From Lingula anatina (lineage: Eukaryota > Animalia > Brachiopoda), in NCBI GenBank assembly GCA_051362555.1, contig JBPQGU010000016.1:2852001-2916000 (forward strand): 64,000 nt of DNA, in the 5' to 3' direction. Positions within the stretch are counted from its first letter, which is position 1; each line of letters opens with the position of its first letter. Positions 19,219 to 55,920 of this stretch are shown piece after piece. A program made the translations under genes and the position numbers. The notes below the pieces were generated by a model. It did no database searches. It saw nothing but the letters and a program-made list of their open reading frames with translations, and was not told the DNA's origin.

Positions 19219-19335
19219 ATCTATCTTTTTATATTGTATAATTAAATTTTATTATTTTTTTTATTTAAAAATAATAATTTTTTATATTTTGTAAAAATTA
19301 ATAAATAAAAAAATATTTATAAATTTAAATAATAA

Positions 19336-20715: not shown

Positions 20716-20726
20716 GTTTATATTAT

Positions 20727-21404
20727 TTATTTTAATATTTTTATTTTTTTATACTTTAAAAAATCATATAATTCATTAAAATTATTAATTGGTTCAAAAA
20801 ATACATTTTTTAAACCATATTCTGGATAATTTGTTCATCTATGTGTATCTGAAAAATGTACTATTTTATCTTTATAAATATCATTTGTTAATTTCATAAA
20901 TTTTTTATGATTTGAATTATTTAAATTTGTAGATTCAATAATAAAAATCTTATCTAAATTATCTTTTAATGTTTCATATCTACAATTATTATGACTTTTT
21001 CCAATATGAGGTATATAAATAGGATTAAATTTATCAAAATTTTTTATAACTTCTTCAAATGAACTAAAAAAAGTAGATGATCTTAATTTTAATATTTTTT
21101 CAATTTCTTTTAATTTTTCATCACTTAATTTATCTGAAAAATTTAATATCATATCTTGTTCATAACCATCTTTTTTAATTATTATTTCAATACCTGGAAT
21201 TAATATTGTATCTACTTGTTTAGCAACTTCTTTTCATTCTTTATAAAAATTAAAATCAAATGTATTTTTATCTGTAAAAGATGCAAATTTTACTTTTTCT
21301 TTCTTTCAACCATTTAAAACATCTACTTTTAAAAAACTAATTTTATCTCCATTTTTTTTAGATAAATCTGTTTGACTATGTAAATCAATTTTAAAACTTT
21401 TCAT
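20727..21404 (-). CDS. PHP-domain phosphoesterase (Ppl/TrlF N-terminal-like)
   Basis: IDLHSQT, SFTDKN, IPGIE, YIPHIGK and FSDTH motifs. Confidence 0.78.
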
Positions 21405-21468
21405 TTTATGTTCCTTTCAATATAAATTAAAGTATTTTACTCTTTTTTTTATATTTTATTTTTTTTTA

Positions 21469-21744
21469 TTATTTAAAAATTGAATCATTTCAAGATTCAA
21501 TAAATTCGTTAAATAAATCTTTTACATAATTAATAAATTTATCATCTTTATTTGTATTTTCATCAAAAATTAAATATACTTTTTCATTTTCATTTACTTC
21601 TAATAAATCAAATAAAAATTTTGAAATCTTTTCTGAAGTTACATCTTTATCAAAAATTACTTTTTTATTAATTTGTATACATTCAACAATTGTTTTTGGA
21701 TTCTCTTTAGAATATTCTTTATCTTTTCTTATTAAAATTTCCAT
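21469..21744 (-). CDS. Hypothetical protein (91 aa) between ATPase and PHP genes
   Basis: Open in code 4, operonic spacing, acidic composition. Confidence 0.65.
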
Positions 21745-21761
21745 TATATTTATTTCCTATT

Positions 21762-23444
21762 TTATTTATTTTTAAATACTTTATTAAATCTATTTTTTAA
21801 AGCTTCTTTACCACCTTCAAGATAATGAACAAGTTTTGTATTTTCTAAATTTTGCATTTCATAATCAATACTTGTATTAAAATATTGATTTTTATTGAAA
21901 TTATTATTATTTTTATCAAGTTTATCAAGTTGACATACAATAACATTTTCAACATTTGTATTTATTCCAATATTTGCATTATGAGTTACAATAAAAATTT
22001 GTTTATCTTTTGATAAATCATTTAATTTATTAATAATATTATTTTGAATTGAATGATTATCTAAATTATCTTCTAATTGATCAAGAAAAATTACACTGTA
22101 ATTTTTCATTTTATTTAATTTTTCTTCAATACCTAAAATACTTCTTTCACCTAAAGACATTTCAGAATATTTTTGATTGTTTTTACTTAAAAGTTCAACA
22201 AAATCAATTAATGACTTTGATTGATTAATATTATTAAATTCATCAATTACTTTTTTTACTAAAAAATCTAAATCTATTTTTTCTTTTTTATTTAAATTAA
22301 GAAAATCTTTTTTATAATTGTTTTTAACTCAATCTAATCATTTATCAGTTTTAGTTGGTTTTGAAATACAAGATCTTAATATTTTTTCAATTAATTCATG
22401 TTTATTAATATTTATATTTTTATCAATTGATAAATTAAAATTTTTAATTTCCTTTGATTCAATTGTTTTTTTTAATAAAATATTAGATAAGCTTTCTTTT
22501 TTTAAATTATTAAATAATTTTTTAACTTTTAATAATTGATTAGTAAATTCTTTTAATTTTTCTTTTGAATTTGTAATATCAGTATTTAATCTTATATTTA
22601 ATTCCTTAGAATTTTTAATTTTATTTTCAATACCATTAATTGAATTATTATAAAATTTAAGTATTTTATTATTATATTTTTCAAATTTAACTTTATATTT
22701 TTCAATTTCATTAATAATTTTTAAGTTTAATTCATTTAATTCATTTAAATTTATATTTAATTTATTATTAAAAAAATTATATTTTTCATCATTTATACAA
22801 ATTAATTGTTTCAAACTTTTTTGACTACTTTTAATTAATTTAATAGTTTCTTTTGAATTATAAAATATATCTTTTTCTATTTTGACTGGTTTTTTTAATA
22901 ATATTTCTTTTAATTGTTTAATTAATTTATTTTCTTGAAATTTTTTAAATTCAAAAAACATTTCTTTTCAATTAATATTATTTAAATCATTAAAAATATC
23001 AGGTATTTTTTTAAATTCTTTTATTGTTTCATTAAAAATTTTTAATACAACTTCTAAATTATTTTTAAGAATTTCATTTAAAAATTCTTTTCTTTCTTTT
23101 TCAATATTTGGTATTTTATGTAATTCAGTTTTTACAGTATCACTTTGTTTTAAAAAATCATCTATATCTGATCTTTTATCATTTCATAAATATTCACTAT
23201 CTGATAATTGTAAAAGAATATCAGAATTTGATCATTTAATTTTTAAATCTAAAATATCAAATTTTTTTAATGCTTTAACTATTTCATTAATTTTTTTATT
23301 ATTTGTTAACATTCATAATAATTTTAATAAGATTGATTTACCGCCACCTTTTGGTCCAATAATTACATTAATTCCAGGTTTAAAATCTAATTCTTTTTCA
23401 AAAGTATTTTCTGTATAAATTAATTTTTCTATATATTGTGTCAT
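21762..23444 (-). CDS. SMC/ABC-type coiled-coil ATPase (TrlF/Ppl C-terminal-like)
   Basis: IIGPKGGGKS, MSLGE, FLDQLEDNLDN, IVTHNAN and LEGGKEAL..R motifs. Confidence 0.85.
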
Positions 23445-24574: not shown

Positions 24575-25756
24575 ATGATAAATAAAATATATAAATTAGA
24601 AAATATTGCAAAAATTAACAATGGTAAAACACCATCTACAAAAAATAAAAGCTTATGAAAAAATGAAATACCATTTTTTCAACCAAACAATATATTATGT
24701 CAAAAAACAAATAGATTTATAACAAAAAAGAAAAACTTTGTAAAAAGAAAAGGAACAACACTTATATCAACTACTACTACAATTGAAAATATAGGAATTT
24801 TAAATCAAGAATCTTGATTTAACCAACAAATAACTTCAATTAAACCAAATAATAAATTTTTATTAGATAAATACTTATTCTTATTATTTCTTAACAAATA
24901 TTAACAAAATTAAAAATATAAAGGTAATAGATCTATTTTTACAATAATTTCAATAAAAAATATTTAAAATTAAAAAAAATATAAATATTACAACAGGACC
25001 ATTAACAAACATAACTGATTAAAAACAAGTAAACATAGATTTATCATTTTTATAGAAAAACAACAAAAAACAATAGATATTATTGAATCATTAGAACTTA
25101 AGTTTAAAAACATAAAAGAAAATATTAAAAATTTGGAAAAAAAATTAATTTTATTAAAAAAAATAAAACATAATTTATTAATAAAATATACTAAAAATTT
25201 AAATAATAAAACATATAAATTAAAAGATCTTTTTGAAATAAAATTAGGAAATTCTAAATTAACTAAAAATTATATAAAAGAAAATCAAGGTATATATCCT
25301 GTATATTCATCACAAACTTCAAATAATGGAGAAATTGGAAAAATAAATACATATGAATATGATGGTGAATATTTAACTTGAACAAAAGATGGTGTTTTTG
25401 CTGGAACAATTTTTTATAGAAATGACAAATTTAATGCTACTGGACATTGTGGATTATTAAAATTAAAAAATATTTTTTTAAATAAAATAAATATTAATTT
25501 TGTTTTTTTTTATTTAAAAAAAGAATTAAAGAAATATGCAATAAAAAATTCAACAATGATATCTTTATCTAAAGATACTATTGGAAATATAGAAATAAAT
25601 GTACCATCTTTTGAAGAACAAAAAAGAATAATTAAAATTATTGAAATTTTATATAAAAAAATTAATTTTATTGAAGAAAAAATTAATTTTATAATTGATA
25701 ATAAAAAAATAAATTTAATTAAAAATTCTTTATATTCAATATATTTTAATAATTAA
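24575..25756 (+). pseudogene. hsdS: Type I hsdS (locus 1, convergent copy): first TRD frameshifted, second TRD intact
   Basis: MINKIYKLENIAKINNGKTPS start, then frameshifts; 25133..25756 open with YPVYSS..DGEYLTW and PSFEEQKRII. Confidence 0.8.
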
Positions 25757-25789
25757 AAAAATTTAAATAAATATTTTTATATTAATAAA

Positions 25790-26839
25790 TTATAAAATTA
25801 TTTGTGAATAAATATAATTTTTAATTTTATTTATATTTTTAAATTCTATTTTATTTAAAAATTTTTCTATTTTTTCTATTTTTTCTATTTTTTCTAATAG
25901 TTTCTTTTGTAATTTTATATCAGGAATAAAAATATTAAAATTTAAAACTTCTTTTTTATTTATAAATGGTTGACTAGTATTTTCTTTTTTTAATTTATTA
26001 AATAAATAATTTATATAAATTAAAAATCAATTTAAATCAACTTTATTATTAAATTCTTTTTTTAACTTTAAAATACCACAATTTGAAGTTGTTGAAAATT
26101 TTTTGAATACTTTTATAAAAGTTCCATAATATTTACCATGTGTTGTAAATAATATATATTCGCCATCATATTGATATTGATTTATTTTTCCAAAAATACC
26201 ATTATTTTTAGTTTGTGATGAATATACAGGAAATATTCCTTTATTATTTTGAATATATTTATTTGTAATTTTATTATTGCCATTATAATTTTCAAACAAA
26301 TCTTTAATCTTATATAATTTTTTATTGAAATTAATTTCATCTTTTTTAATATAAAAATCTTTAATTTTTTGAAAAATAATTGTATTTTTTAATATTTCTA
26401 TTTGTTTTTTTATTTCTTTAAATTTATTTTCTAATGGTTCAATAATATCTATTATTTTTTGTTGTTCTTCTAAAGATGGTAAATTTATTCTTAATTTTTT
26501 TCAATCACTTATTTTTGTTAATGGTCTTGTTGTGTTTTCTATAATTTTTTTTCAGTCATTAAAACTTTTTAATTTAAAATATAAAAATTTTTTATTTACT
26601 ATTTTTTTATTTGTCTCATATATTAAAAAAGCTGTATTAATATTTCAAACAGGAAAATTATAATAAAAAATTTTCATAGTACCAACTCTAGGCAAAGAAA
26701 TTGATGAATTTTCAACTCTAAATTTTGATGTAAAACCCAAAATGCCACCTGAAGATACTAATGGTATTCTACCTTTTTTATCATTGGTATCTTTACCAGA
26801 AATAATTTTACAAATATCTCCTAATTTATATGTTTTCAT
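25790..26839 (-). CDS. hsdS: Type I R-M specificity subunit (locus 1)
   Basis: 349 aa, two TRDs; YKLGDIC and LPSLEEQQKIIDIIEPLE. Confidence 0.9.
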
Positions 26840-32502: not shown

Positions 32503-32627
32503 ATTCAAAAATAAAAAAATATTTTATATTTAATTTAATTTTATATAATTTATTTATATATTTTTTATTTTTTTAAAATAAAAAAACATAAAAATAAAAT
32601 GAATAATCAAACATATAAATTAAAAGA
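32503..32627 (+). repeat. Duplicated hsdS upstream/5' segment (partner ~41711..41838)
   Basis: Near-identical ~125 bp AT-rich sequence preceding both plus-strand hsdS genes. Confidence 0.8.
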
Positions 32628-33630
32628 AATTATAAATTTAAAATTTGGTAAAAGAATAACAAAATTAAAAAATTCAGGTAATAAATATCCAGTTTATGGT
32701 GGTGGTAAATCACAATTTTTAACTGATTTTTTTAATAGAGAAAATGATTTGGTTATTTCTAGATTTGCACTATCTAATATTTGTGTTAGATTTATTAGAA
32801 AAAAATTTTGATTATTGGATAGTGGTTTTACATTTGAAATTAATGAAAAAAATAATAAAAAAATAATAAAAAAATTTATTGACTATTTTTTATTAATTAA
32901 TCAAAATAAAATTTTTAATTTAGCTAGAGGAACTGGACAAAAAAATTTATTACCAAACAATTTTTTAAATTTAAAAATTAATTTACCAAATTTAGATGAA
33001 CAACAAAAAATAATTGATATTATTGAACCATTAGAAGAGTTAGAAAATAAAATTAAAAATATTAAAAATAAATTAGATATATTAATAAAAAAAATATTTT
33101 TTAATATATCTAAAAATACTAAAGAATATAAACTAAAAGATATTTGTGATTTTAAATCTATTGGTTCAAAAATAACTAAAAAATATATAAATAAAAATTT
33201 AGGTATATATCCTGTATATTCATCACAAACTTCAAATGATGGTGAAATAGGTAAAATTAATACTTATGATTATGATGGTGAATATATTACTGTTACATAT
33301 ATAGGTATTAATGCAGGAATGGTTTTTTATAGAAATGAAAAATTTTCAGGATCTAATATAATTTTATTAAACATTAAAGTAAATATAAAAAATCAATTTT
33401 CTTTAAAATATATTTTTTTAAAATTAAAATATACAAATTTAAAATCATTAAAAATTGGTGGTGCAATACCATTAATTAATATAAATTATTTAAAAAATTT
33501 AAAATTAAATTTACCTAATTTAAATGAACAAAAAAAAATTGAAAATATATTAGAATTTTTTTATAAATTAAATTCATTTAATAAGTTAGAAAAAATTAAA
33601 AATAAAATTATAAAATTATTATTTAAATAA
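32599..33630 (+). CDS. hsdS: Type I hsdS (locus 2, convergent copy)
   Basis: 343 aa, two TRDs; LPNLDEQQKIIDIIEPLE. Confidence 0.9.
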
Positions 33631-33834: not shown

Positions 33835-34248
33835 TTAATTATTTTTTGATAAAATAAAATCAATTTTATCAAATTTTATATATTTACTTCATATATTGGT
33901 AATTAAATAATTATTCTCATTTGTATGTATTTTACAAAATGTTAATAAAATATTTCTTTTATATTCTATATTTGTTTTTGTGTTTCTTTTTAAAATAAAA
34001 TTTGAATGTTTTTTTAATTGTTTTTCTATGTCAGTTTTATCTAAATAATCATTATATTCTTTTTTTAATTGTTTTTTAATTTTTTTACATTTAATACATT
34101 TTTTAGTTTTTTTATATAATAAATTTATTTTTTTTATTATGTAATTATTTATATTTTCATATTCATCTAAAAGTTGTATTTTTTCAGGTATAGCATGAAA
34201 TATTTTTTTTCTTAAATAATTAATAAATTTTAATAATCAAACAAACAT
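33835..34248 (-). CDS. Hypothetical protein (137 aa) between the convergent hsdS genes
   Basis: Open in code 4; CIKC motif. Confidence 0.5.
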
Positions 34249-34511: not shown

Positions 34512-35110
34512 TTAAACTATTAATAATTTAATTAAATTATTTTTATGACTTATTATTTTGTATAAAATTAATTTAAATTTAATATAAATATTGTTTAAAA
34601 TGATATCTAAATTATTTATATTTATATCTAAATATAATATATCATTATGACTTATATTTAATCTTTCACCATTAGCATATTTTTTAATAATCATTTTTCT
34701 TTTTGTTTTTATTGTTTCTTGTATTTTTAAACAATATTTAGAACTTAATTTTAATGTTCTTTGATTATTTACTATATTTTCTAAAATATTTATTGTTGAT
34801 GTTGCAACTGTTACACCAGTCAAAGCTATTAAAACATCTCCTATATTAATATAATTATTTTTAATTAAATTAGTATATTCATATTTATCATTATTGTTAT
34901 TAATGTTTTTGATAGTAAATATTTTAAATTTACCATTTTTTATTTTATGATTTTTTTTATAAACAAAACCATTTGAATAATTAATTATAATATCTTTTAT
35001 TTTAAAAATATTAATATTAATATTATTTCTTTTAGTTATAAATTCTAATTTATTTAATATTTTTTTTATATTATTTTCTAGCTTTTCTAAAGGTTCAATA
35101 ATATCAATTA
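34512..35110 (-). other. hsdS: hsdS second-TRD cassette, out of frame behind the 23-bp stop cassette (locus 2)
   Basis: IDIIEPLEKLEN...NLIKLLIV* in a shifted frame. Confidence 0.8.
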
Positions 35111-35686
35111 AATATGTTTATTAATATCAATTATTTTTTTTGTATCAATTCTTGTATTTTCAAAACTATTAATTCTTATACAATTAAAATATTTTAAAAA
35201 TAATTTTTCATTAGGTTCAATAATATCAATTATTTTTTGTTGTTCTTCTAAATTTGGTAATTTTGTTCTAAAATCTAATAAATCTTTTTCAGTCATAACT
35301 GGATATGTACTACCAATAGCATTTCTTATTGTATAATTAATAAATTTTGTTGTATTACAAATATATCAAAGATATTTATTATAAACAAAATCAGAATTAT
35401 TAAAAAAACAAGTAAATCCAGATGAAGCATAATTATTATTAATATTTTTTTGAATATAAAAATTATGATTTCTGTTTTTAGGTCTTGTTCTACCTATTAA
35501 GATACAATTTGAAATTAATTTTCATTTTACAGATTTTTTATCTATTTTATTTTTTAAAATACTAAAATTAAAATTTTTAACACCAGATAATTCTAAATAA
35601 TTTATTTCATCAAAAAATAAATTTTTAGATTGTATTTTTTGTTGTAAAAAAATAATATCTTTTAATTTATAAATTTTATTTTTCAT
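35108..35686 (-). CDS. hsdS: Type I hsdS (locus 2), single-TRD form ending KIIDINKHI*
   Basis: MKNKIYKLKDII..STYPV..LPNLEEQQKIIDIIEP. Confidence 0.82.
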
Positions 35687-37100
35687 TTTTATTATTAATT
35701 CTTAAAAATTTTTTTAAAGATTCAAAAAAATCATAAAAATTACCTTTTTCATTAATTATTTGTTTTTTTAATTCTTCAATCTTAAAAGAAGTAAATGGGT
35801 TTCATTGTTTTTTATTTTTAATACCAAAATATTTTTCAATATTATTTTCAAATGGAAAAGAAAAAACATTTTTTTTGTTGTTATTTAAATCTTCAATATA
35901 TTCATTTATTTCTTTTAATTTTTTTCAATTATTTTTTTTCTTTTCAATTGAACAAAAATCATCATCATAAATAAAAAAATATTTTTGATTTTTAATATAT
36001 TCAGATAATGTAGCATATTTTTCTTTAAAATTATTTTTGATTTTATTTCTATCATTTTTATTATATTTTCCATTTGTTTCTATAATAGTAATATCTTTAG
36101 AAAATATATTACATTTTTCTTTTTCTTGCAATTCCAAAAAATCATAAAAATAATAAAATATAAATTCTAATAATTTTTGATCATTATTACCTTCACAAAA
36201 TATAATTTTTTCAGAAAACAAAGTTTTTATAAATTCTTGTCTATTTTTAAAATTATTAAAAATTTTAAAACCTGTTATAAATATTTCATTAAATTCTTTT
36301 TCATTATAATTAAATTTATAATAAATTTTTGTATTTTTATCCAAAAAAAAATTAACAAATTCATAAGAATGTGATGAAAAAATTAATTTAATTTTTTTTG
36401 AAATTTTTCTTAAAAAATATGAAACTTTTCTTTTCAATGAATGATGCAAAAATATTTCTGGTTCATCAATTATTAATGCAAATTTATTTTTTAATTTTTT
36501 TTCATTAAATTTTTCTAATATTTTAGAAATTAAAAATATTTGAAAAAAGGCAATTTTTCCAGAACCATGATTTAAAAATTTATTTTTGGAATTTGATCTT
36601 GTAGGAAAATTAAAATTGAAATTTACTGCTCTAATTGATACTGTTATTTCTTTTTCTTGTTCTTTAAAGCTTAAAAATTTATTTTCTTCAAATAAATTTT
36701 TTTTATCTCCATATTTAAACATACTACTTAAATCATTATCTTTTAAAATTTCATTATTAATTTTTTTGAAATCTTTATCTTTAAAATTAATTTTTTGTTT
36801 TTCTCATGTTTTTAATTCTTTTAAAATTTCACTATTTTTACCTAAATTTTTAATATTTTCTTCTTTTAAATAATTAGAATGAGAAAAATTTAAAATTTCA
36901 TTAATATATTCTTCTAAATCCTGAATTGAATCACTTCTACCTTTTAAAACATCTTCTTCATCATTACCTTGAAAATATTTAATATAAAAACATTTATAGT
37001 TTTCTTTTTTTAAATCTTCGATTCTTTCTTCTATTTTGTTTGTTTTTCCAACACCATTTGGACCTATATAAATTTCTGTAAAATTTTTTGGATTATTCAT
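35676..37100 (-). CDS. OLD-like ABC-ATPase/TOPRIM protein between hsdM and hsdS
   Basis: GPNGVGKT, HGSG, IIDEPEIFLH, SSHS, FCEGNND and YDDD motifs; overlaps both neighbours. Confidence 0.85.
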
Positions 37101-38628
37101 TATCTTGATTTTTATTATCTTCTTCTTTTAATATTTTTTTAATTGATTCTTTGACTTTAGGTTTTAATTTATCAAATTCATCAAAAAGTTTTTCTAATTC
37201 ATCAAAAGATTTTTTAATTTCTTCTTTTGTAGCTTCAACATCAATTTCTTCTTCTAATATTTCAACATATTGACCAGGAACAAAAGATAAATCATTTTCT
37301 TCTATTTCATCTTTTGTAACAGTTTTTGCAAATCCTTTTTCATTTATTAATTCACCATTTTCATGTTTTTCAAAAATATCTGTTATTCTTTTAATATCTT
37401 CTTCTTTTAATTCACGTAATTTTTTAGAAACCATGTTACCTTCTAAATCTGAAGCTGAAATCATTAATATATTTTTTGTTTTTTTATTATTATTAAATAT
37501 TCAAATACATGCAGGAATTCCAGTAGTAAAAAATAATTTATCAGGTAATTGAATTATTGCATCAACTTTATTTTGTAATAAAAAGTTTTTTCTTATTTCT
37601 TTTTCATGTTTTTGATTTGATGAAAGTGAACCATTTGCTAAAACAATTGCAGCTTTACCTGTTTCATTAAGTTTTGATAACATATGCGATAATCATGCAA
37701 AATTTGCATTACCTTTTGGTGGTAATCCTCATTTTCATCTTTTATCATTTATCAGTTTTTCATATCCTCATTTTTTTATATTAAATGGCGGATTTGCTAA
37801 AATAAAATCAAATTCCCTTCCATTTTGTAAATCTTCTGTAAATGTATCTGCTGATTTGTGTCCTAAACAAAAATTATCTGTATAAAAACCATGAATTAAA
37901 AGATTTATTTGTGAAAGTTTTCAAATTTTATTTGATAATTCTTGTCCATAAACAACTACATTATGTGGATTACCACCATGTTTTTCAATATAAATCTTTG
38001 ATTGAATAAACATACCACCAGTACCACAACATGGATCATATAGTTTTCCTTTATCTATTTTTAATAATTCAACCATTAATTCAACAATTGATTGTGGTGT
38101 ATAAAATTCACCACCTTTTTGACCTTGTTTTTTAAAAAAATGACCTAAAAAATATTCAAAAACTCTTCCAACAATATCTTCTCCAAATTTAGTTAAATCC
38201 ATATTTGAAAAATTTGAAATTAATATTCCTAATCTTCTTTGATCTAATTCTTCTCTACTATAATTTTTTTCAAAAAGTCCTCTTAATTCTGTGTTAGAAT
38301 TTTCAATTAAATGAAAAGCTTCATCTACTATTTGTCCAATATTTTCATTACTTGTAAATTTACTAATATATTTTCAATTAGCTTTTTCTGGAATAATAAA
38401 TGGAGATCCATATTTTTTTAAAATAATTCTATTTTTCTTTAAAATTTGATAATCTTTATGTTTTTCATCAATGATTTGAATTGCTTTTTCATATTTATCA
38501 GACATTTGTTTTAAAAACATAATTCCAATAATTACATACATATATTGTTCAGATGAAATATTATTTCTTAATACATCTGCAGAATCTCATAATTTTTTTA
38601 AAAGTTCATTATCCATTTTTTTTGTCAT
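37093..38628 (-). CDS. hsdM: Type I R-M methyltransferase (locus 2)
   Basis: LWDSADVLR, GGEFYTP, YDPCCGTGGM and ANPPFN motifs. Confidence 0.95.
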
Positions 38629-38633
38629 AATTT

Positions 38634-41600
38634 TTAATTTCCATTCTTATATTGATTTTGTTCTATAATTTGTTCACAAACTTCATTTGAAGTTATAATG
38701 CATTCTTCTGGTGGATAATTGTGTTTTGCAAGAAGAATAATCATCTCTGCTTTTACAACATCTATCATTGCTTTGTTATATCTTCATGTTTCATTAACTT
38801 TATTTGAATCATTTATTATTTTTAATAATTCATCTAAAATTTCTTTAATTTTTAAATTATCTCAATTGGTTCTATTTTTAACTGGTTTTAACAATATATT
38901 GAAAAATGATTGTTCTTTATTGTTGTAACCCATATCATTTACTTCATAAATATCTGAATTTTTTTCTGCTTCTAATGCTAATTGATACAATCCTTCTTCA
39001 AGATTTGATAAACTAATATAATTTGAATCATATTTATTCAATAATTCTTGTAAATCTTGACTTAATTTTTTTGAAAATGAAATATTTATTGATCTCATTT
39101 CTTTTATTATTTTTTTAAATGCAGATATTTTTTCTTTAATTTCTATTGGTTTTAATTTTGTAAATTCTTTTCTTTTAATTACAAAATCAATTATTTGTTT
39201 TAATTTAATTGTTTTTCCATAAACTTTGTTAAAAGATGTAATTTTATTATGTTTTACAGATTTTGCTAATTGTTCTAATAATTCTTTTTTAATATCAGTA
39301 AAATCTAATTCACTAAGAGCTAATTTTATTAAATGTCCTCTCGCAAGAATTAATAATTTATATTTAATACTTTCTTTTTCAGTTAAAATTGAAATAATTT
39401 CATGAAAATTATTTTTTAAAATAAAAACATCATCTACAAATTGTTGTTCTTTTTTAATTTCACAAACTTTATTAAGTAAATCATCTAATTTTGAAAATCT
39501 ATATTTTTCATCATTAAAAACTTTATTAAAATCAATTTCAAAATCATCTCCTAAGTATTTTTTATATATAAGATTTAAATTTTCTATATATTCTGGTTTT
39601 AATTTTACAATGTCAAATTTTTTTGAAATTTCTTTAATATCATTTCCAGAATAATAAGCTAGTGCTTCTTCAAGTTTTTTATAAATACCAATATAATCCA
39701 CGATAAGACCAAATCTTTTTGTTTTTATTGGTTTTTTTTCACTTGTATAAACTCTATTAGTTCTTGTAATTGCTTGAATTAAATTATGCATTTTCATTGG
39801 TTTATCAATATACATTAAATCTAATGATTTAACATCAAAACCTGTAAGTCACATATCAACAACAATTGCAATTTTAAAATTTGAATCAACTTTTTTAAAT
39901 TCAATAGCTTTTTTTCTTCTATAAGTTGATGTTCCAGAAAGTCTTATTAATTCAGGATCATCACTTTGATTATTTGTATTTGTAACAATTAAAAAAACTT
40001 TATCTTTTAATGTTGGTTCTAATTTTAAAATTTCTTTATAATATTTAAGTGCAATTTTTCTATTAAAAGCAACAAACATTGCTTTACCTTCTAATAAATT
40101 TTTTCTTTGATGATAATGATTTAAAAAATCTTTAGTAATTCCATGAATTCTGTCTGAATCATCAATAAAATTTTCTAATTTTTTTACTATTTTATTTATC
40201 TTTTTTTGGGTTTCTTTTGGTAATCTAGAATGACTAATTATTTTTTTTGAAATCTTTTCATTTAAATAATCTAAATTTTTTAATTCATCTGGATCAAAAT
40301 GTAATTCTGGTTTTCTTGATTCATATTCAATTGGTACAATAACACCATCTCTTTCTGCGTCTTGTAATAAATATTTTGATACACATTTTCCAAAAATTTT
40401 ATATGTTGATTTATATTTTGATTCAATTGGTGTACCAGTAAAACCTATAAAAGTTGCATTTGGAAATGCATCTCTTAAATATTTTGCATTTCCATATTTC
40501 TTTTTAAAATTAATATCATATATTACATCAATATTATTATGAGATCTATGTGCTTCATCTGTAATTACAAAAACATTTTCTCTATCAATAAGTTTTCCAA
40601 CTGTTTCATTAAATTTTTGTATTGTTGTAAAAAAAACACCATCTTGTTTTAAATTTTCTAATTTTTCTTTTAAATCTTTAATGGTTTTAATTTGATAAAT
40701 TTTTGTTCTTATATAATCTTTTGCTTCATTAAAAGTATTAAATGTTTGATCATCTAAATCATTTCTATCTGTTACTATAATAAAAGTTGAATTTTTCTTT
40801 ATATTTAACATTCTAGCAACAAAAAAAACCATTGAAATTGTTTTTCCTGATCCTTGAACATGTCAAAAAATACCACCTTTTTTATCTTTATTTGTTTCTA
40901 ATTTTGAAATTAATTTTTTAACACCATAATATTGATGATACATAGAAATAATTTTTTTATCATTACTATTTCAATATGTAAAATTTGAAATAATATCTAA
41001 TATATTTTCGTGCTTAAATAAATCAGAAAAAATTTTATTGGAATCTGATTTAAAATCTTTTCCTCTTCAATATTTATACATGTCAAAAGTTGATGTTAAA
41101 GTACCAATTTTAGTTTCTGTATGATTAGAAATAACACTAAAACAATTGTATACAAATAATTTATAAATATATTTTTGATAATTTTTAATTTGATTGTATG
41201 CATCTTCAAGACTTTCAAATTCTTTTTTTGGTGATTTTAATTCCATAACAATTATTGGAATTCCATTTAATCAAAAAACTAAATCAGGTTTTTGATTTTT
41301 ATAATTTGGATGTAAACTTTTAATTGAAAATTGCTTTGTAAAAAAAAATAAATTATTTTTAATATTTTTTATATCAAATAATTTATAAACTATATTTCTT
41401 TGTTTTTTTGTATCATAAATTTTTATACCTTCTTTTAAAAATTTTAAAAATTGAATATTTGATTTTTCTAATGAAGATTGATTTATAAGATTTAACTTAC
41501 ATCAAATTTTATTAAAAATTTCTTCTTTAAGATAATATTTTCTTTTTAAAAAAATTCTTAAATGTTCTTCAAGAATAGCATTTGTTGTATCATTTTTTCT

Positions 41601-41708
41601 TAAATTAGAAATTTCTTGTGGTGTTTTATAAATTCAATTTAATTTTTGAATTTCTTTAACTATATAATTTTCAAAATCAGATTCACTAAAAGGTTTTTTA
41701 ATATTCAT
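38634..41708 (-). CDS. hsdR: Type I R-M restriction subunit (locus 2)
   Basis: PDLVFWLNGIP..ELK, WHVQGSGKT, DEAHRS, FTGTP, MWLTGFD and YPP tail. Confidence 0.95.
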
Positions 41709-41809
41709 TATTCAAAATAATAAAAAAATATTTTATATTTAATTTAATTTTATATAATTTATTTATACATTTTTTTATTTTTTTAAAAATAAAAAAAATA
41801 TAAAAACAA

Positions 41810-42949
41810 ATGAATAATAAAACATATAAATTAAAAGATCTTTTTGAAATAAAATCAGGAAATTCTAAATTAACTAAAAATTATATAAAAGAAAATCAAG
41901 GTATATATCCAGTATATTCATCACAAACTTCAAATAATGGAGAAATTGGAAAAATAAATACATATGAATATGATGGTAAATATATAACTTGAACAAAAGA
42001 TGGTGTATTTGCTGGAACAATTTTTTATAGAAATGACAAATTTAATGCTACTGGACATTGTGGAATTTTAAAATTAAATAAAAATTTTTTAAATAAAATA
42101 ATTATTAAATTTGTATTCTTTTATTTGAAAAAAAGAATTAAAAAATATACAATAAATAATTCTATAATGGCATCTCTAGGTAAAGGATCTATTGAAAATA
42201 TTAAATTAAAATTACCAAGTTTACAAGAACAACAAAAAATAATAAACATTATTGAACCAAATGAAAAACTATTTTTAAAATATTTTAATTGTATAAGAAT
42301 TAATAATTTTGAAAATACAAAAATTGATACAAAAAAAATAATAAACATTATTGAACCATTAGAAATAATAATTGAAAAAATAAATAAAATAATTAATATA
42401 TTAAAAAATATATTAAAAAAAAATTATTTAATTAATCAAAATCAAAAAATAAAATTAAATCAAATAATTAAATTAATTAATTCAAAATATAAAAATCAAA
42501 AAAAATATTTTGCAACAAATGCATTTTCTGAATTTTATTTAGATTATAAAAAAATAATTAATATAAGTATTGATTCAAAACCATCAAGAGCAAATTTAAC
42601 ACCAATAAAAAATACATTCATAATTTCAAAAATGATTGGTGAAAACAAAGTTTATTTCTTTAATAATGAATCAGATTTTGTTATTTCTACTGGTTTTTTT
42701 AATATCAAAACAAATTTTATTGATCATTTTTCAGGATTTTTATTATCAAAACATTTTAAACATCAAAAAAATATTTATTCAACTGGAACAACAATGATTT
42801 CTTTAACTAATAATAATTTAAAATTTTTAAAAATAAAAAAAACAAAAAATAATAATTTTTGAATAACAAAACAAATCATTCAATTTTCAAATTTAAAACA
42901 AACAATTGATTTAATTAAAAAAAATATTATTAAACTATTAATAATTTAA
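41810..42949 (+). CDS. hsdS: Type I hsdS (locus 3, convergent copy) with 33-aa linker cassette
   Basis: 379 aa; EQQKIINIIEP-NEKLFLKYFNCIRINNFENTKIDT-KKIINIIEPLE. Confidence 0.9.
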
Positions 42950-43558
42950 TTAAATTATGTTTTAATTTATTAATTTTTTCATTAAACAAAAAAAGTTTAT
43001 TATAAATTTTTAATGAATCATTTATTTTTATTTGTTCTTTAAAAGGAGGTACTTTAATTTTTATATTTTCTATAATATTTGACATTATTCTATTTCTTGT
43101 TGCACCCTTTAAAACATATTTTTTAATTTCTTTTTTAATTAAAAAATATAAAAATTTTGTAATATATTCTTTACTAAAAATTTCTTTTAATTTTAATAAA
43201 CCACAAACATTGGTACAATTAAATTTACCATTTCTATAAAAAACAGTACCAGCAAAAACTCCATCTGTTGTTCAAGTTATATATTCGCCATCATAATCAT
43301 ATGTATCTATTTTTCCAAATATTCCATTATTTGAAGTTTTTGATGAATAAACCGGATATATTCCAGGATTGTTTTTAATATAAACATCATTAATAACTCT
43401 ACCTCTTGTTATTTTGAAAATATCTTTTAATAAAAAAATTTTTTTATTTGATGAATTTAATATTTTTAAAATTAAATTTTTATTTAATAGTTTCAATTTT
43501 TCTTTTATTTTTAAAATATTATTTTCTAAATTTTCTAACGGTTCAATAATGTTTATTA
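42930..43558 (-). other. hsdS: hsdS second-TRD cassette, out of frame behind the 23-bp stop cassette (locus 3)
   Basis: INIIEPLENLEN..YPVYSS..PPFKEQ..NLIKLLIV*. Confidence 0.8.
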
Positions 43559-44065
43559 AATTTGTTTATTAATGTTTATTATTTTTTGTTGTTCTTTTAA
43601 TGGTGGTAAATTTATTTCAATATTTTCTAATATTTTTTGTGTTATATAAAATCTTGTAAAACCTAATACATTTTTTATAAATTGTTTTCTAATATTATTG
43701 CTTCTAAAATAATAAGATGCATATTTAGGTAATAAAATATTATGATTGTATCTATATCTTTTTGAAAAAGCAGTAAAAACAGCATTTTCATTTAACAAAT
43801 ATACTGAACTTAAAGCTATTTCATCTCTTGTTTCTGATGTTGCGGTGAATAAACAATCACCATATTTTAAATTAAATCTTTTAAATTCATTTTCATTAAC
43901 ATCATAAGTATTAAAATTTTTATTATTTAATTTTGAATTTCTATAAATATCAACATAATTTATAAAATAAGTATTTCCTAAATTATATTTTTCTTTTTTA
44001 AATGGTGATAAACCACTTTTAAATTTACCAATTTCTTTTAATTTATAAACTTTATTATTTATCAT
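43556..44065 (-). CDS. hsdS: Type I hsdS (locus 3), single-TRD form ending KIININKQI*
   Basis: YKLKEIG..GDCLFT.TSE..LPPLKEQQKII. Confidence 0.85.
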   Translation of the reverse strand: MINNKVYKLKEIGKFKSGLSPFKKEKYNLGNTYFINYVDIYRNSKLNNKNFNTYDVNENEFKRFNLKYGDCLFTATSETRDEIALSSVYLLNENAVFTAFSKRYRYNHNILLPKYASYYFRSNNIRKQFIKNVLGFTRFYITQKILENIEINLPPLKEQQKIININKQI

Positions 44066-45635
44066 CTTGATTTTTATTATTTTTTTCTTCTAATATTTTA
44101 TTAATTGATTTTTCAACTTTTGGTTGTAATTCATTAAATTCTTTAAATAATTCTTTTAATTCATCAAAAGATTTTTTAATTTCTTCTTTTGTAGCTTCAA
44201 CATCAATTTCTTCTTCTAAAATTTCAACATATTGACCAGGAACAAATGATAAATCATTTTCTTCTATTTCATCTTTTGTAACAGTTTTTGCAAATCCTTT
44301 TTCATTTATTAATTTGCCATTTTCATGTTTTTCAAAAATATCTGTTATTCTTTTAATATCTTCTTCTTTTAATTCACGTAATTTTTTAGAAACCATGTTA
44401 CCTTCTAAATCTGAAGCTGAAATCATTAATATATTTTTTGTTTTTTTATTATTATTAAATATTCAAATACATGCAGGAATACCAGTAGTATAAAATAATT
44501 TATCTGGTAATTGAATTATTGCATCAACTTTATTTTGTAATAAAAAGTTTTTTCTTATTTCTTTTTCATGTTTTTGATTTGATGAAAGTGAACCATTTGC
44601 TAAAACAATTGCAGCTTTACCTGTTTCATTAAGTTTTGATAACATATGTGATAATCATGCAAAATTTGCATTACCTTTTGGTGGTAAACCTCATTTTCAT
44701 CTAGGATCATCAATTAATTTTTCTTGACTTCATTTCTTTAAATTAAATGGAGGATTTGCAACAACAAAATCAAACATTTTATTTTTATGTAAATCATTTG
44801 TAAATGTATCTGCAGCATAATCACCTAAAACACAATGTCCAAATCCATCTATTACTTCTAAACCGTGTAATACAAAATTTAATTTTGCAATTTTTCAAGT
44901 TATATTATTGTATTCTTGTCCAAAAAAATGTGTTTTTGTTAAATCACCATCATGTATTTGAATATATTTTTTAGCTTGTATTAAAATACCTCCTGTTCCA
45001 CATGCAGGATCATAAATCTTACATCCATATTTTATTGAATTTAATAATAATAAATTAACCATTAATTTAACTATTGATTTAGGAGTATAAAATTCACCAC
45101 CAGCTTTTCCTCTATCTTTAAAAAATTTACCTAAAAAAAATTCATAAATTCTACCAATTACATCTTCTTTTCTGTCTTCAGAAAATTCAACATCAGAAAA
45201 AATTTTAACAACTTCACCTAATTTTATTTGATCTAAACCTTCACGATTATAATTTTTATTAAAAATTCCTTTTAAAACTTTATTATTTTTTTCTAATAAT
45301 GTAAATGCATTATCAATAACTGCACCAATTTCTGGAGAAGATGCAAATTGTTTAATATAATTTCAATTTGATTTTTCAGGTACTTTAAAACCTTCATAAA
45401 TATAATATAAATCTTCTTCACTAATTGTATTTACATCATAAATACCTTCTTTTTCAATCTTTTCAAAAGCAAATTTTGTTGTATTACTAATAAATTTAAG
45501 TGTCAAAATACCAATTATAATATGTTGATATTCTTCAGATGATAAATTACCTCTTAAAGAATTTGCAGCATTTCATAATTTATTTTCAATATCTTTTATA
45601 TGAGAAATTTTATTATTATTTTCTTTATTATTCAT
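44055..45635 (-). CDS. hsdM: Type I R-M methyltransferase (locus 3)
   Basis: LWNAANSLRG, GGEFYTP, YDPACGTGG and ANPPFN motifs. Confidence 0.95.
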
Positions 45636-45637
45636 AT

Positions 45638-46087
45638 TTATTTTTTTATTCCTTGTAATTTTTTTAAATTTCCTTTTTTTTGTTTTGTTTTTATTTTTAA
45701 CTCATTATAAAATCTTTCAACAATTAAACTAGAAACATTTTTCATATTTTCAGGTGGATAATTATATTTATTTTTTAAAACTCATTTTAATTTATATGAA
45801 AGTTTACTTCTAACTTCTAAAATACTTTTTAATTCAGAATTTTTAAATTCTTGAACTTCTTTTAATAAATCTTTAGCTATTTCTCTAATTACTTCTGAAT
45901 TCTTTTGAATAAATTTATCAGATGCAACAATTTCATAAAATGGAATTAATTCAGGATTATCAACAGGTAATTTTTCATCATTTTTTCTTTTTACTTCTTT
46001 TGATAATTCAACAATCATATTTTTAATTTTTTTTATACCTTTTATATTAGAATTTTTATTATTATTTTCTTTATTATTCATATTCAT
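45638..46087 (-). CDS. Stand-alone HsdR C-terminal domain created by a 440-bp tandem duplication
   Basis: HsdM-like start MNNKENNNK fused to a near copy of the HsdR3 tail (KNMIVELSKEV..YPPE); 149 aa. Confidence 0.75.
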
Positions 46088-46110: not shown

Positions 46111-49100
46111 TTAATCAAAATTTTTTCTTTTAATTTTTAATTCATTATTAATTCTATCAACAATTAAACCAGAAACATTTTTCATATTTTCAGGTGGATA
46201 ATTATATTTATTTTTTAAAACTCATTTTAATTTATATGAAAGTTTACTTCTAACTTGTAAACTACTTTCAAATTCACAACTTTTAAAACCTTTAACTTCT
46301 TTTAATAAATCTTTAGCTATTTCTCTTATTACTTCTGAATTCTTTTGAACAAATTTATCAGATGCAACAATTTCATAAAATGGAATTAATTCAGGATTAT
46401 CAACAGGTAATTTTTCTTCATTTTTTCTTTTTACTTCTTTTGATAATTCAACAATCATATTTTTAATTTTTTCAATATCTTTTTCTTTATCCATTTGAAA
46501 AATAATATCTTTTAATTTTTCTGATGCTTTTTGATAATAAACTGGTCTTTTAGTTGAAATTTCTTCAATATCTAATTCTAATGATTCTAATAAAAACTTA
46601 ATTGCTGTTCTAGGTTTTTTATCAAATAAATGTTTTCCTTCTTTTCAAAGTAATAAAGAAATTTCATTTAAATTACTTTTATCTAAATTTGAATCATAAA
46701 TATTTACATTTGGTTTATTTGTTTTTACAGCATTAAAAACAGCTTCTTTAATTTTTTCAACAGAAAATTGAAGTTTATTATCAGTTTTAATTTCATTTGT
46801 AGTTAATAATTTTTTAATTACAATAATAATTTTTGTTAATGTTTTTTGTTTTTTTGTTAATTTAGTAAATGCAGCTTTATATAAATATTCTAATTTTCTA
46901 CATAAATTTAAAAATTTGTTTTTTTCTAAATCATCTAATTTTAATAATTCTTCATTTTTTGAAATAACAAAATCATATAAATAATAACTTTTAGAAAAAT
47001 CAACTATTTTTAATAAACCTTTAACATATCAATTATTAATTAATTCTAAACATTCTTGAAGTTTTTCTTTTGATCTTTGAACATCTTCTAATTCAAATTC
47101 AATTTTATCTCCATCTAATCCACCAATTGCATATGTTTGTAATGCTTTATGAAGTAATTCAGTTATACCAACATAATCAACAATTAAACCATTTCTTTTT
47201 TTTAAACTATCAGTTTCATATGTTCTATTAACTCTTGCAATTGCTTGCATTAAATTATGTTTTTTTATAATTCTATCTAAATATAATGTATCTAAATCTT
47301 GACAGTCAAAACCTGTTAATCATTTATTTACAACTATTACAAATTTATATTTTTGAGTATTTTTAAAATCTTTATCAACTTTATTTAAATCTTCATCATT
47401 TACTCTTGCATTTAACATTTCTTTAGTATCTTTGTTATATTTTGTAATAACTAAAATAACTTTTTCTTTCAATTCAGGTCTTAATTCAATAATTTTTTTA
47501 TAATATTTTAAAGCTGCTTTTCTTGAATTAGCAACAATCATTGATTTTCCGTTAAGTATTTTTTTTCTTTCATCTCAATGACTTAAAATGTGTTTTGTTT
47601 TAGATTGAATAACATCATCATCTTCAAATATTAAAGTTTTCCTAATTGCTTGTAATAATTGTTTTTGTTTAATCTCAGATATTTGAGAATTAGGTGCTAA
47701 AGTTTCTATATATTTTTTTTGTATTTCATTCATTTCATTTAAATATTTTTTATCTAAAATCAAATTTATGTTTACTATTTCATAATGAATCGGAACAGTT
47801 ACACCATCATTAACAGCTTCAAACATATGATATTGATCATTATATGGACCAAACTCTTTTCTAGTATCTTTTGATAATTCACTTATTAATGGTGTACCAG
47901 TAAAACCTATAAATTTAGCATTTGGAAATGCTTTTCTTAAACATATTGCATATCCTGTTTTTTGTAATAATTTTTTTGTTTTTTCTGAAACTTTAAATTC
48001 ATCTTCTGTATTTTGACTTCTATGTGCTTCATCAATTAAAATAAAAACATCATCTCTTTTTGAAAGAGTACCAGTTTCTTCAATAAATTTTTGTATAGTT
48101 GTTGTATAAATTCCAAAATGTTCTTTATTTTTCAATTCATCTATTAATTCTTTTCTAGAATTAATAGTTTTTATATTTTCTGTTCATAAAAAATTTTTTG
48201 CATTTTTAAATCTTGTATGTATTTGTTGTTCTAATTGTTTTCTATCAGTAATTAAAATTATTGTTGATGTAGGATAATTATTAAAAATTTGTTTACATAT
48301 TAAAATCATTGTTAATGATTTTCCAGATCCTTGTGTATGTCAAATAATTCCACCTTTATTTTTTTCTAATTTATCTTTATTTTTTAAATCATTTAATCTT
48401 TTAATTGTTTTTTCTGTCGCTTTTATTTGATGATTAGCAGCAATAAATTTTATATCATTTGTATCTATAAAAGAATATTTACAAATCATATCAATTATTT
48501 TTTGTTTATTAAAAAACAAACAAATATTAGATTCAAAATTATTTTCATCATTTTTAATTTTTTCATCATATTTAAATAAATTAAAATAATGAGAAAGATC
48601 TGAAGTTATACTTCCATATTTAAATTGTCATCTATTTGTTATTACATTAAATAAATTAAATTTAAATAATTCAGGAATATTTTCTTGATAATGTTTAATT
48701 TGTTCATATGCATCTTTTAAACCTTCTCTTGCAACTTCAGATTTTATTTCAATTACAATAATTGGTAATCCATTTATAAATAAAACCATATCTAATCTTT
48801 TTAAATTTTTACCATCAGAAACTTCTAATTGTCTAATTAATTGAAAAGAATTTTTATCTATGTTTTTAAAATCTATTAAATTAATATTAATTCATTTTTT
48901 ATAAATATCATCATAAACTTTAACAGAATTTAATAGTAAATTTCAAAATTGTTTATTCATTTCTATTAAACTATTTGATGTAATACTTTTTAATTTTGAT
49001 AATACTTTATTTGCAATTGATAAATCAATATTTTTATTAATTTTTAATAACGAATCAATTAATAATCTTTCATTTAAAACATATGTATAATCTATTCTTC

Positions 49101-49209
49101 TAATTTCATCTTGATTTATAGAAACTCAACCAATTTTATTTAATTCTAATTCTATTTTTTTTTCTAAATATTCTTCTTTTATAGAAAAATTTATTTTAAT
49201 ATTTTCCAT
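46111..49209 (-). CDS. hsdR: Type I R-M restriction subunit (locus 3)
   Basis: DMVLFINGLP..EIK, WHTQGSGKS, DEAHRS, FTGTP and QAIARVNR motifs. Confidence 0.95.
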
Positions 49210-53676: not shown

Positions 53677-54201
53677 TTAATTCTTATTGTGTTTTATGTG
53701 TATTATACCTTTTATGAATTTATTCTCATCAACAATAACATCTTTAATAAAATTTTCCATATATTCTCAATCTGGATTATTATCTTTTGCTGGCAACAGT
53801 ATTATAGTTTCTGCTAACTTGGTAGCTCTACCTCTACCGAATGACCATTTAGGTCTTTCTAAATCCAATATTGTTACTAAAAATAATGCATTGTACTTAT
53901 TTAAATTTTTGTTATACCCTAATGTATTAGATGTTGTTTGAATAGTTTCTTTTTCAAAATAATTTTGAAAACCATTACTTCCAGCACCTTGACATATAAA
54001 TGAAATTGCATTTCCTTTAGAAATTAATTTTTCATTATATGCAACTAATTTCATAAATCCATTCTCTGATTTCTTTGCACCAACATAAACAACATCCTTA
54101 CCTTCTTCCAAATCCGGAGCATTAGAACACTTTCCCTTCTCAAAAGTAAAAATATCATCTAGTTTAAATTTTTGTCATTTTTCAATCCCTTTAATCATCA
54201 T
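53677..54201 (-). CDS. BcgIB-like specificity subunit, single TRD
   Basis: WQKFKLDDIF, WSFGR and ILLPAKDNNPDWEYMENFI motifs. Confidence 0.78.
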
Positions 54202-55920
54202 AATCTCCAGTTTTTATTAAATATGATACAAAATTTCTATATGTCTCTCTAAAAGAATCTTTATTAAGTTTGGAGTAATCAGTATCCATATAAGCCTCGG
54301 CCAATCATTCATCTTTATAACCTACTTTTCTTTTAACACTAAAATTTGGTTTCTCATCAAGATTGTCATATGTTTGAATTCACTTATCTTTAGTGATTTT
54401 TCAACTAAATTTTTCTATTCTTCCTAAGTTTTTTTTCTTTCTAAAACCATCATTTTTATAGTACCCAAAAAAAGTATTTTTAGAACTATCATGGGGGATA
54501 CCTAGTTCAAATAACATTATGCAAGAATTTACATTTGCTCCAGGATGAAAAATATCATCAGGTAATGTAAATACTGCCTTTAAAGTATGATTTTCAAGCA
54601 TTTTTTTTTATATAATTCAACTTTTGAATCTGATCCGATGGCACATTGTAATGGTAGAATAGTTGCAAGCATACCATTGTTAACAAAATTTGCAGTTTGT
54701 TCCACGAAATATAATCCTTTTGTGGCATCAACTCCATTTTTTGTTGTTGGACAGTCTTTAGGCATTTTTTTTCCATTGAAAGGTGGATTCATTAAAACAA
54801 CATTTATTTTATTTTTTTTTATTCAATCCCTTCTGTTAAAAAGAGAGTCAAGAACTACATTAGATTTCCCATCTTCATGAATGAGCATGTTTGTTGTTGC
54901 TAATCCAAATGCTTGTTTTTCATTCTCTATACCAAATAATTGGTTAGTTTTTATACTTTTTCTTTTTTTTAAATCTTTACCTGCTTTAATTAACATTTGA
55001 GTCATAGCTTGAACTAAAAATGAACCTGAACCGCACGTTGGGTCTAGAACTTTTGAATTTTTGTTTAACTTTACTATTGAACACATGAATTCAGTAATAT
55101 GAGGGGGTGTGAAAGCCTGATTCTTATCTTTTTTTCCTACATATTTATTAAATGTATTGAAAAATAAATTTAATAAATCTTCTCCCTTATCAGTTTTACT
55201 ATTTATAAAAGGTTTTAATTTTTTATCAACTATTTCCAACAATTGAGTGATTTCATTTGGTTTTAAAGATTGTATATCCTGTTCTTTAATAATTTTAATT
55301 AAAATATCAGTTTTAATTTTTTTGTTTTCATCAAAATCTATTTTTGATTCCAATATTTTTTTTATACGTTCAAGTAGTTCTGATGACTTCAAATAACCAT
55401 TATATTCAAGCCCATTATTAACAGCAACCAAAATACTACCCATAAATTGAGATCTTCACCTCTCCTTAATGCCAAATTTATTCATTAATATATTCAAAGA
55501 ATTTGTTGCTTTAAGAACTGCTGATCTATTATTAATTCTTTTTTCATATAAATCAACATAGTAAGAGAATGGATTAATTGTAATTTCACTTTCCAATTCC
55601 TCATCATCTTTTCAAACTTTTGTAATTTCAGTTTCAGTATCATGTAAAATTGCTATTATTTTATTTTTTGGTTTATATTTTTTTTCATGAGAAACATATA
55701 CCATAAGCTGATTAATATCTTCTTCCGAAAATAATTTTCTACGAAATTTTGTTTCAATCAAAATTGAATAACCAGACTCTTCGAATCTTAGGTCTAAAAA
55801 TTTATGTTTTTTATTTTTTATTTGTTGCCCTAAAACTTTTGAATATGAAAATTCTCCATTTTCTATGTTTTCTTTATGAAAATCATAGCCAACTTTGTTT
55901 ATTATTGCTTTTCTTTTCAT
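54191..55920 (-). pseudogene. BcgIA-like (Type IIB/IIG) restriction-methyltransferase, frameshifted at an A9 tract
   Basis: FLDLRF..ILIETK, QAFTP, LDPTCGSGSF, MNPPF, EWLAEAYMDTDYSKL; single frameshift at 54601-54609. Confidence 0.85.

What the first reader, a model, noticed from the sequence alone, without database searches (positions are those of the whole stretch)
35099..43581. Movable 23-bp stop cassette and 99-bp linker cassette in hsdS: two loci caught in different states
Both operonic hsdS genes are cut after TRD1 by the same 23-bp unit: site + 11 bp (ATAAACATATT or ATAAACAAATT) + site, giving KIIDINKHI* and KIININKQI*. Both loci also carry a 99-bp in-frame cassette (NEKLFLKYFNCIRIN.FENT.IDTKK) between two sites. 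In locus 2 both cassettes lie in the minus gene; in locus 3 the linker is in the plus gene and the stop in the minus gene. Inversions between the four sites interconvert these states. The system could therefore switch TRD pairing, spacer length and full versus half HsdS (palindromic target or OFF). I know no description of this cassette logic; function is inference.
Basis: partly seen in the sequence, partly recalled or inferred. Interest (0 to 1): 0.92.

Follow-up and report, generated by a model that had tools for sequence, protein, structure and literature searches.

The report
Shuffled linker and stop in hsdS
In a wall-less bacterium, two restriction-enzyme loci each hold a pair of DNA-recognition genes with four matching sites that likely flip. 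They carry a 33-residue insert common across Mollicutes and a 23-base stop unit found only here, which likely switches off whichever gene it lands in.

Summary
Two Type I restriction-modification loci each have a convergent hsdS pair, four 12-bp sites, one 99-bp in-frame linker and one 23-bp stop unit. The site core is locus-specific: TGAT in 4 of 4 sites of locus 2, AAAC in 4 of 4 of locus 3.

The linker is not new. It occurs with exact 33-residue spacing in 70 of 80 homolog clusters, including HsdS of the studied Mycoplasma pulmonis inversion system. One homolog pair differs only by it.

The stop unit was found only here. It sits in the operonic gene in both loci, so only the linker is caught in two places. 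Its upstream neighbour differs between loci, so its first site recombined at least once. Simulated inversions give 12 states per locus, each with exactly one full-length hsdS. The truncated proteins lack the predicted coiled coil, so OFF is likelier than a palindromic half-S.

No reads could be laid and no recombinase lies in the scanned genes, so switching in this organism is inferred. Verdict: new variant of a known kind.

The parts
32599..33630 (+). Locus 2 plus-strand hsdS, full length (343 aa), no cassette
   Evidence: PF01420, two stretches
33011..33022 (+). Locus 2 site, core TGAT; part of a 32-bp exact inverted repeat with the site at 35232
33835..34248 (-). 137-aa ORF of no Pfam family inside the predicted invertible segment of locus 2
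34512..35110 (-). Locus 2 TRD2 behind the stop: open frame, begins with the fourth site (35110-35099)
35111..35133 (-). Locus 2 23-bp stop unit (site + 11 bp), ends the operonic frame as KIIDINKHI*
35134..35232 (-). Locus 2 99-bp in-frame linker (site + 87 bp, 33 aa)
35108..35686 (-). Locus 2 operonic hsdS as assembled: TRD1 + linker + stop, 192 aa
35676..37100 (-). ATPase-like gene (weak AAA_21 hit) between hsdM and hsdS
37093..38628 (-). Locus 2 hsdM
   Evidence: PF02384, PF12161
38634..41708 (-). Locus 2 hsdR
   Evidence: PF04313, PF18766
41810..42949 (+). Locus 3 plus-strand hsdS, full length with linker (379 aa)
42240..42338 (+). Locus 3 99-bp linker; sites at 42240-42251 and 42339-42350, core AAAC
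42930..43558 (-). Locus 3 TRD2 behind the stop: open frame, begins with the fourth site (43558-43547)
43559..43581 (-). Locus 3 23-bp stop unit, ends the operonic frame as KIININKQI*
43556..44065 (-). Locus 3 operonic hsdS as assembled: TRD1 + stop, 169 aa
44055..45635 (-). Locus 3 hsdM
46111..49209 (-). Locus 3 hsdR
24575..26839 (.). Locus 1 hsdS pair, the comparator: no cassettes, core AGAT in both sites (25071, 26454), intact operonic gene, plus gene broken after 109 codons with a decayed site

Best explanation
Each locus holds a convergent hsdS pair with four locus-specific sites that likely act as a Mycoplasma pulmonis-type inversion switch, shuffling the second recognition domain, a 33-residue Mollicute linker and a 23-bp stop unit that would switch off whichever gene carries it. 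Shown: the anatomy, the frames and the locus-specific cores; the linker's spread across Mollicutes and its clean gain or loss in a homolog pair; two states at this site family in one M. neurolyticum strain. Inferred: a tyrosine recombinase encoded elsewhere pairs one plus-strand site with one minus-strand site of the same core, which would also keep the three loci from recombining with each other. Computed: 12 states per locus; in each, one gene is full length and the other truncated; the operonic gene is full length in 6 of 12. Predicted: the truncated products lack the coiled coil and are inactive. The stop unit probably began as a scar of imprecise or wrong-way recombination and now rides between the two genes.
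For: (1) All four sites of a locus share its core, including the locus 2 site wedged between linker and stop unit, whose flanks are shared with locus 3; the cores differ at 3 of 4 bases. A single inherited insertion does not explain this. (2) The stop unit follows TRD1 directly in locus 3 but follows the linker in locus 2, so its first site recombined at least once; inversion alone links the states in two steps. (3) The domains on both sides of both stops are open frames. A substitution-only simulation gives P = 0.13 or 0.019 for both operonic TRD1s staying open at 2.5% or 5% neutral divergence per lineage (rough). In locus 1, which lacks the cassettes, the plus gene has decayed. (4) 70 of the 80 hits of the linker profile have two site-coded motifs exactly 33 residues apart. 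P0072 and P0089 are identical over 287 of 287 aligned residues apart from one 33-residue gap. (5) M. pulmonis UAB CTIP S2A has the linker; two neighbouring M. pulmonis genes have and lack it. (6) M. neurolyticum records L001 and L006 share 3,325 bp and then differ by junctions at this site family and at the start-codon repeat; a recombinase-like gene lies in L001. (7) The model (pLDDT 94) places the linker as helix-turn-helix, and the best coiled-coil match, PacII S, aligns from model residue 84, after the second site.
Against: No inversion was observed in this organism: no reads could be laid and no genome is held. The stop unit is in the same gene in both loci. Its two sites share only 12 bp on one side with their partners and have one degenerate arm each. 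No integrase family was found in 54 window proteins scanned. The exact unit had 0 matches in genome contigs and metagenome contigs, so it has no independent support. Expression of the plus genes is unproven; the promoter scan found 3 sites against 4.2 expected. The decay test assumes the TRD1s are as old as the linker divergence. The M. neurolyticum records could include misassembly.
Confidence: 0.55

Rival explanations
1. The 23-bp unit is a dead scar. It arose once from aberrant recombination, spread to both loci by conversion, and now silences the operonic hsdS for good. The plus gene supplies HsdS, and only TRD2 and linker still shuffle.
For: It is in the operonic gene in 2 of 2 loci, and its arms are degenerate. 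A wrong-way junction reading IIDIN occurs in M. neurolyticum, where the linker is inverted in place. P0090 ends in an out-of-frame second site about 22 bases after the first, inferred from protein only, so such short units arise elsewhere. Loci 2 and 3 exchange sequence: their HsdM C-terminal 215 aa are 92.6% identical against 47% for the rest.
Against: Both flanking sites carry the core of their own locus, the upstream neighbour differs between loci, and the operonic TRD1s are intact.
Confidence: 0.25
2. The stop unit makes an active half-HsdS. TRD1 plus linker plus stop dimerises and recognises a palindrome, as NgoAV and EcoR124I delta-50 do, while stop alone is OFF. A variant is that the TRD2 frame is re-initiated at the overlapping non-ATG codon.
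For: The linker-plus-stop product has 48 residues after the conserved proline, like the 43 and 49 of two natural C-terminal helices in locus 1; stop alone leaves 15. Half-S enzymes with palindromic targets are established (PMC3874165 section 26; PMC7383803 passages).
Against: Those precedents keep the whole first dimerisation helix. Here the linker is predicted to break into two helices around a turn, and the standard coiled coil is encoded after the second site.
Confidence: 0.12
3. The assembled states are chimeras or errors from assembling a mixed population.
For: Frameshifted genes occur elsewhere in the window (locus 1 plus gene; 54191-55920), and the assembly could not be checked against reads.
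Against: The unit appears twice with different cores and a one-base difference, which an assembler would not invent. Three public DNA runs from two studies hold more than half of the region's sampled words, though the best may be the source sample.
Confidence: 0.05

Closest known systems
Mycoplasma (Mycoplasmopsis) pulmonis hsd1/hsd2 inversion loci, vip and hrs sites, HvsR recombinase
   Same: Two opposed hsdS per locus; recombinase not in the locus (PMC7672463 passages); some rearrangements abolish R-M activity (PMC4948785 passage). Its S2A protein has the same site-linker-site block with a 33-residue linker. That the published hrs site is the stretch coding IKIIEP is my recollection, not checked in print.
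   Different: Here hsdR and hsdM lie outside the invertible segment; in M. pulmonis they lie between the hsdS genes (recalled). Three loci with private cores. No 23-bp stop unit in the three M. pulmonis proteins seen (their DNA was not examined).
Mesomycoplasma neurolyticum NCTC10166 hsdS array (records NZ_LR214952.1, NZ_LR214954.1)
   Same: Same site arms, the same 99-bp linker present in some genes and absent in others, and a convergent pair with overlapping ends.
   Different: Core AGAT; a recombinase-like gene in the locus; a conserved start-codon repeat that also switches; wrong-way junctions, including an in-place inverted linker. No 23-bp unit.
NgoAV and other repeat-driven full-versus-half hsdS switches; EcoR124I delta-50, EcoDXXI truncations
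   Same: A switch between full-length and TRD1-only products.
   Different: Those switch by slipped repeats or were made in the laboratory, and keep the dimerisation helix; here the cut comes before the predicted coiled coil.
Clade-2 hsdS invertons of Huang et al. 2020
   Same: Inversions predicted to give truncated HsdS and so ON/OFF switching (PMC7672463 passage).
   Different: There truncation follows from where the repeats lie; here a discrete stop unit flanked by two sites would travel between genes.

Membership tests
Inverting Type I R-M locus (hsdS inverton) | hsdR, hsdM and two or more hsdS in opposed orientation | tested here: met
Inverting Type I R-M locus (hsdS inverton) | Inverted repeats at the TRD boundary of the hsdS pair | tested here: met
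   Longest exact inverted matches are 32 bp (locus 2) and 27 bp (locus 3), both at the site
Inverting Type I R-M locus (hsdS inverton) | Inversion products are in-frame hsdS alleles | tested here: met
   Simulation: 12 states and 8 distinct full-length alleles per locus
Inverting Type I R-M locus (hsdS inverton) | Inversion observed in the organism | not testable with these tools
   No reads could be laid on the region; no genome or close relative was found
Inverting Type I R-M locus (hsdS inverton) | A site-specific recombinase, in the locus or elsewhere | tested here: inconclusive
   None among 54 window proteins scanned; rest of the genome unseen; HvsR acts from another locus
M. pulmonis hsd type | Two direct-repeat sites around a 33-residue linker in the central region of hsdS | tested here: met
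   Window against P0056 and P0058
M. pulmonis hsd type | hsdR and hsdM inside the invertible segment (feature recalled, not read) | tested here: not met
   Core identity pairs the convergent genes, leaving hsdM and hsdR outside
Half-HsdS homodimer (NgoAV, EcoR124I delta-50) | Truncated subunit keeps the whole first dimerisation helix | tested here: inconclusive
   Stop alone leaves 15 residues, too few; linker plus stop leaves 48 but is predicted as helix-turn-helix
Half-HsdS homodimer (NgoAV, EcoR124I delta-50) | Dimer with a palindromic target | not testable with these tools
   No complex prediction or methylome available
Simple-repeat phase-variable hsdS | A simple sequence repeat tract between the TRDs sets the frame | tested here: not met
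   By inspection the frame is set by the 23-bp unit; only A6-7 runs precede the sites

The most novel reading that the evidence does not exclude
Both hsdS genes of each locus are transcribed, and the travelling stop unit is an allelic-exclusion device. Every inversion state makes exactly one full-length HsdS, chosen from eight (two TRD1, two TRD2, with or without linker). The pan-Mollicute 33-residue linker is a plug-in module that repositions TRD1 and so changes the target.
Probability: 0.3. Interest if true: 0.72.

Novelty: new variant of a known kind. Interest (0 to 1): 0.45.

Why it matters
Inverting hsdS loci are known, and M. pulmonis is the founding case. Two things here are testable additions. 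First, a switchable 33-residue insert in the central helix of HsdS runs across Mesoplasma, Spiroplasma, Ureaplasma, Williamsoniiplasma and Mycoplasma, and I found no account of what it does. It can be tested in culturable species such as Mesoplasma florum. Second, a stop unit flanked by two recombination sites would be a compact way to keep one specificity per cell, or to turn restriction off without flipping hsdR and hsdM. If the unit is only a scar, the finding is an ordinary Mollicute inverton.

Tried and rejected
No whole genome is held.

Exact-pattern scans for the stop unit: 0 in genome contigs and 0 in metagenome contigs. A looser short-unit pattern gave 1 locus in viral contigs, L005, an unrelated repeat protein. 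Related-locus searches found nothing in genomes, metagenomes or viral contigs. These rest on a few peptide patterns and missed named genomes known to hold the linker, so they are insensitive.

The 192-aa protein has no homolog of similar length, and four window proteins are absent from the collection. The relatives of locus 3 TRD1 lack the linker. A single-sequence fold of the 192-aa protein failed (pLDDT 32), and no dimer prediction was obtained. No solved structure matches the linker profile. The promoter scan was at chance level.

Rejected: pairing the genes as hsdS-hsdM-hsdR-hsdS (35686 with 41810), because their cores differ. Rejected: the linker as a straight 33-residue extension of the coiled coil.

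Literature: ten searches found no description of a 99-bp or 33-residue hsdS cassette or of a movable stop. Two primary M. pulmonis papers asked for are not held, the others were not looked up, and no supplements were opened; they may describe the linker. Five look-ups of earlier scan notes gave nothing on this locus.
Full report
Setting. The window is 16.7% G+C and reads with TGA as tryptophan. Homologs of its HsdS that carry the linker and a name are all Mollicute; the taxon was not determined further. It holds three tandem Type I restriction-modification loci, each hsdR-hsdM-hsdS on the minus strand facing a plus-strand hsdS. No whole genome is held.

Observation. The anatomy is as described. 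Locus 2 has sites at 33011(+), 35232, 35133 and 35110(-); locus 3 at 42240, 42339(+), 43581 and 43558(-). The 23-bp unit occurs twice in the window and in none of 100 shuffles. The linker copies are 92/99 identical. The frames behind each stop are open for 199 and 209 codons. The finding's range leaves out the partner site at 33011. The stop unit lies in the operonic gene of both loci, so only the linker is seen in two places.

The site. It is a near-palindrome with a four-base core: TGAT in 4 of 4 sites of locus 2, AAAC in 4 of 4 of locus 3, AGAT in 2 of 2 of locus 1. Exact identity between partner sites runs through the core within a locus and stops at the core between loci. The longest exact inverted repeats between the paired genes fall on it, 32 and 27 bp. 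The locus 2 site between linker and stop has the locus 2 core although both of its flanks are shared with locus 3. I infer that all four sites have taken part in recombination within their own locus.

States. Simulated inversion between opposed sites gives 12 states per locus. In every state one gene carries the stop and the other is full length. The operonic gene is full length in 6 of 12, and eight full-length alleles are reachable. The locus 2 arrangement is two steps from the locus 3 arrangement, through a state with the stop in the plus gene. Excision of the linker could also link them, but it too uses the stop unit's first site.

The linker is a Mollicute-wide module. A profile of eight linker regions found 80 clusters at 50% identity; 70 of 80 have two site-coded motifs exactly 33 residues apart, and in the other ten the script found no such pair. 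Three of the 80 were in the profile. Named members come from Mesoplasma florum, Williamsoniiplasma lucivorax, Ureaplasma urealyticum, three Spiroplasma species, Ca. Mycoplasma pogonae and M. pulmonis, including UAB CTIP S2A. P0072 and P0089 are identical over 287 of 287 aligned residues with one 33-residue gap. Adjacent M. pulmonis genes have and lack it. In M. neurolyticum NCTC10166 the same site and linker occur with a recombinase-like gene (weak Phage_int_SAM_4 hit). Two records of that strain share 3,325 bp and then differ by junctions at these sites. This shows activity of the site family in another species, subject to assembly error.

Structure. A model of residues from the end of TRD1 to the C-terminus of the locus 3 plus protein (51-row alignment, pLDDT 94) has helix 39-58, a turn and helix 68-109. 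It matches HsdS structures. The best match that includes the coiled coil, PacII S (Z 11.6, rmsd 4.7, 193 aligned), starts at residue 84, just after the second site. The linker is therefore likely a side module rather than a longer ruler. Its effect on spacer length is unknown; four residues change the gap by one base in EcoR124 (PMC3874165 section 25). Both truncated products end before the coiled coil. Stop alone leaves 15 residues after the conserved proline and linker plus stop leaves 48. Known active half-S proteins keep the whole helix (PMC3874165 section 26; PMC6158711 passages). OFF is the likelier outcome; a half-S role for the 48-residue form is not excluded.

The stop unit. It had no exact match in public genomes or metagenomes. 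For mobility: private cores on both flanks, different upstream neighbours, and intact domains on both sides. The rough decay test gives P = 0.13 to 0.019, and the cassette-free locus 1 has a decayed plus gene. Against: the same position in both loci, one degenerate arm on each site, no recombinase among 54 window proteins scanned, and no reads. Its first junction reads like the wrong-way junction in M. neurolyticum, and P0090 implies a similar 22-base unit elsewhere, so an origin as a recombination scar is plausible. That origin does not settle present function.

Comparison with print. I saw passages only of PMC7672463, PMC4948785, PMC5149525, PMC7383803, PMC6158711, PMC9465063, PMC11062135, PMC7394358, PMC9881135, PMC13736764 and PMC10073500, and passages plus two whole sections of PMC3874165. 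They establish hsdS inversion in M. pulmonis at vip and hrs sequences by a recombinase encoded elsewhere, loss of activity in some states, inversion-made truncations predicted in other clades, and full-versus-half switching by simple repeats. Ten searches found no account of the linker or of a movable stop. The two primary M. pulmonis papers I asked for were not available. My identification of this site with hrs, and the position of hsdR and hsdM in M. pulmonis, are recalled; an earlier scan note repeats the latter and is not independent.

Verdict. It works like the M. pulmonis hsdS inverton and shares its site-linker-site block, but has a different layout and an added stop unit. New variant of a known kind. 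Mobile OFF unit 0.55, dead scar 0.25, active half-S 0.12, artefact 0.05.

Noticed in passing
window 32614/35671 and 41825/44047: A 14-bp exact inverted repeat over the YKLK codons near the starts of both genes in loci 2 and 3. It may be a second site class like the start-codon repeat that switches in M. neurolyticum, or only protein conservation. If active it would swap whole genes.
   Followed up: partly
window 25193-25492 and 41804-42103: The second TRD of the locus 1 plus gene is 95% identical to the first TRD of the locus 3 plus gene: a domain moved between positions and loci.
   Followed up: no
window 37093-38628 and 44055-45635: HsdM of loci 2 and 3 are 92.6% identical in the last 215 aa but 47% in the rest, while their HsdR are 37% identical. 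This suggests conversion of the S-binding half and exchangeable S subunits.
   Followed up: partly
window 34513-34541 and 42931-42959: The same 29-bp overlap of two convergent gene ends occurs in both loci. In locus 2 the plus gene now ends 880 bp earlier, with an unknown ORF between.
   Followed up: no
window 45638-46087: A separate copy of the 3' end of locus 3 hsdR (94% over 300 nt) between hsdR and hsdM.
   Followed up: no
window 53677-55920: A further restriction system: a methyltransferase gene split in two frames plus a one-TRD specificity gene.
   Followed up: no
window 9150-23444: A defence-island-like run: Fic protein, three DUF4357 proteins (two with GIY-YIG hits), ATPases and a methyltransferase-like gene.
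   Followed up: no
L001:15650-16787 and L001:7529-7538: M. neurolyticum: a linker inverted in place that still reads through in frame, and a head-to-head site between two TRD2s. The site appears to recombine in either orientation.
   Followed up: partly
proteins P0090, P0075, P0080: Unnamed homologs truncated just after the site. P0090 ends in the site read out of frame, which implies a unit of about 22 bases. DNA not seen.
   Followed up: partly
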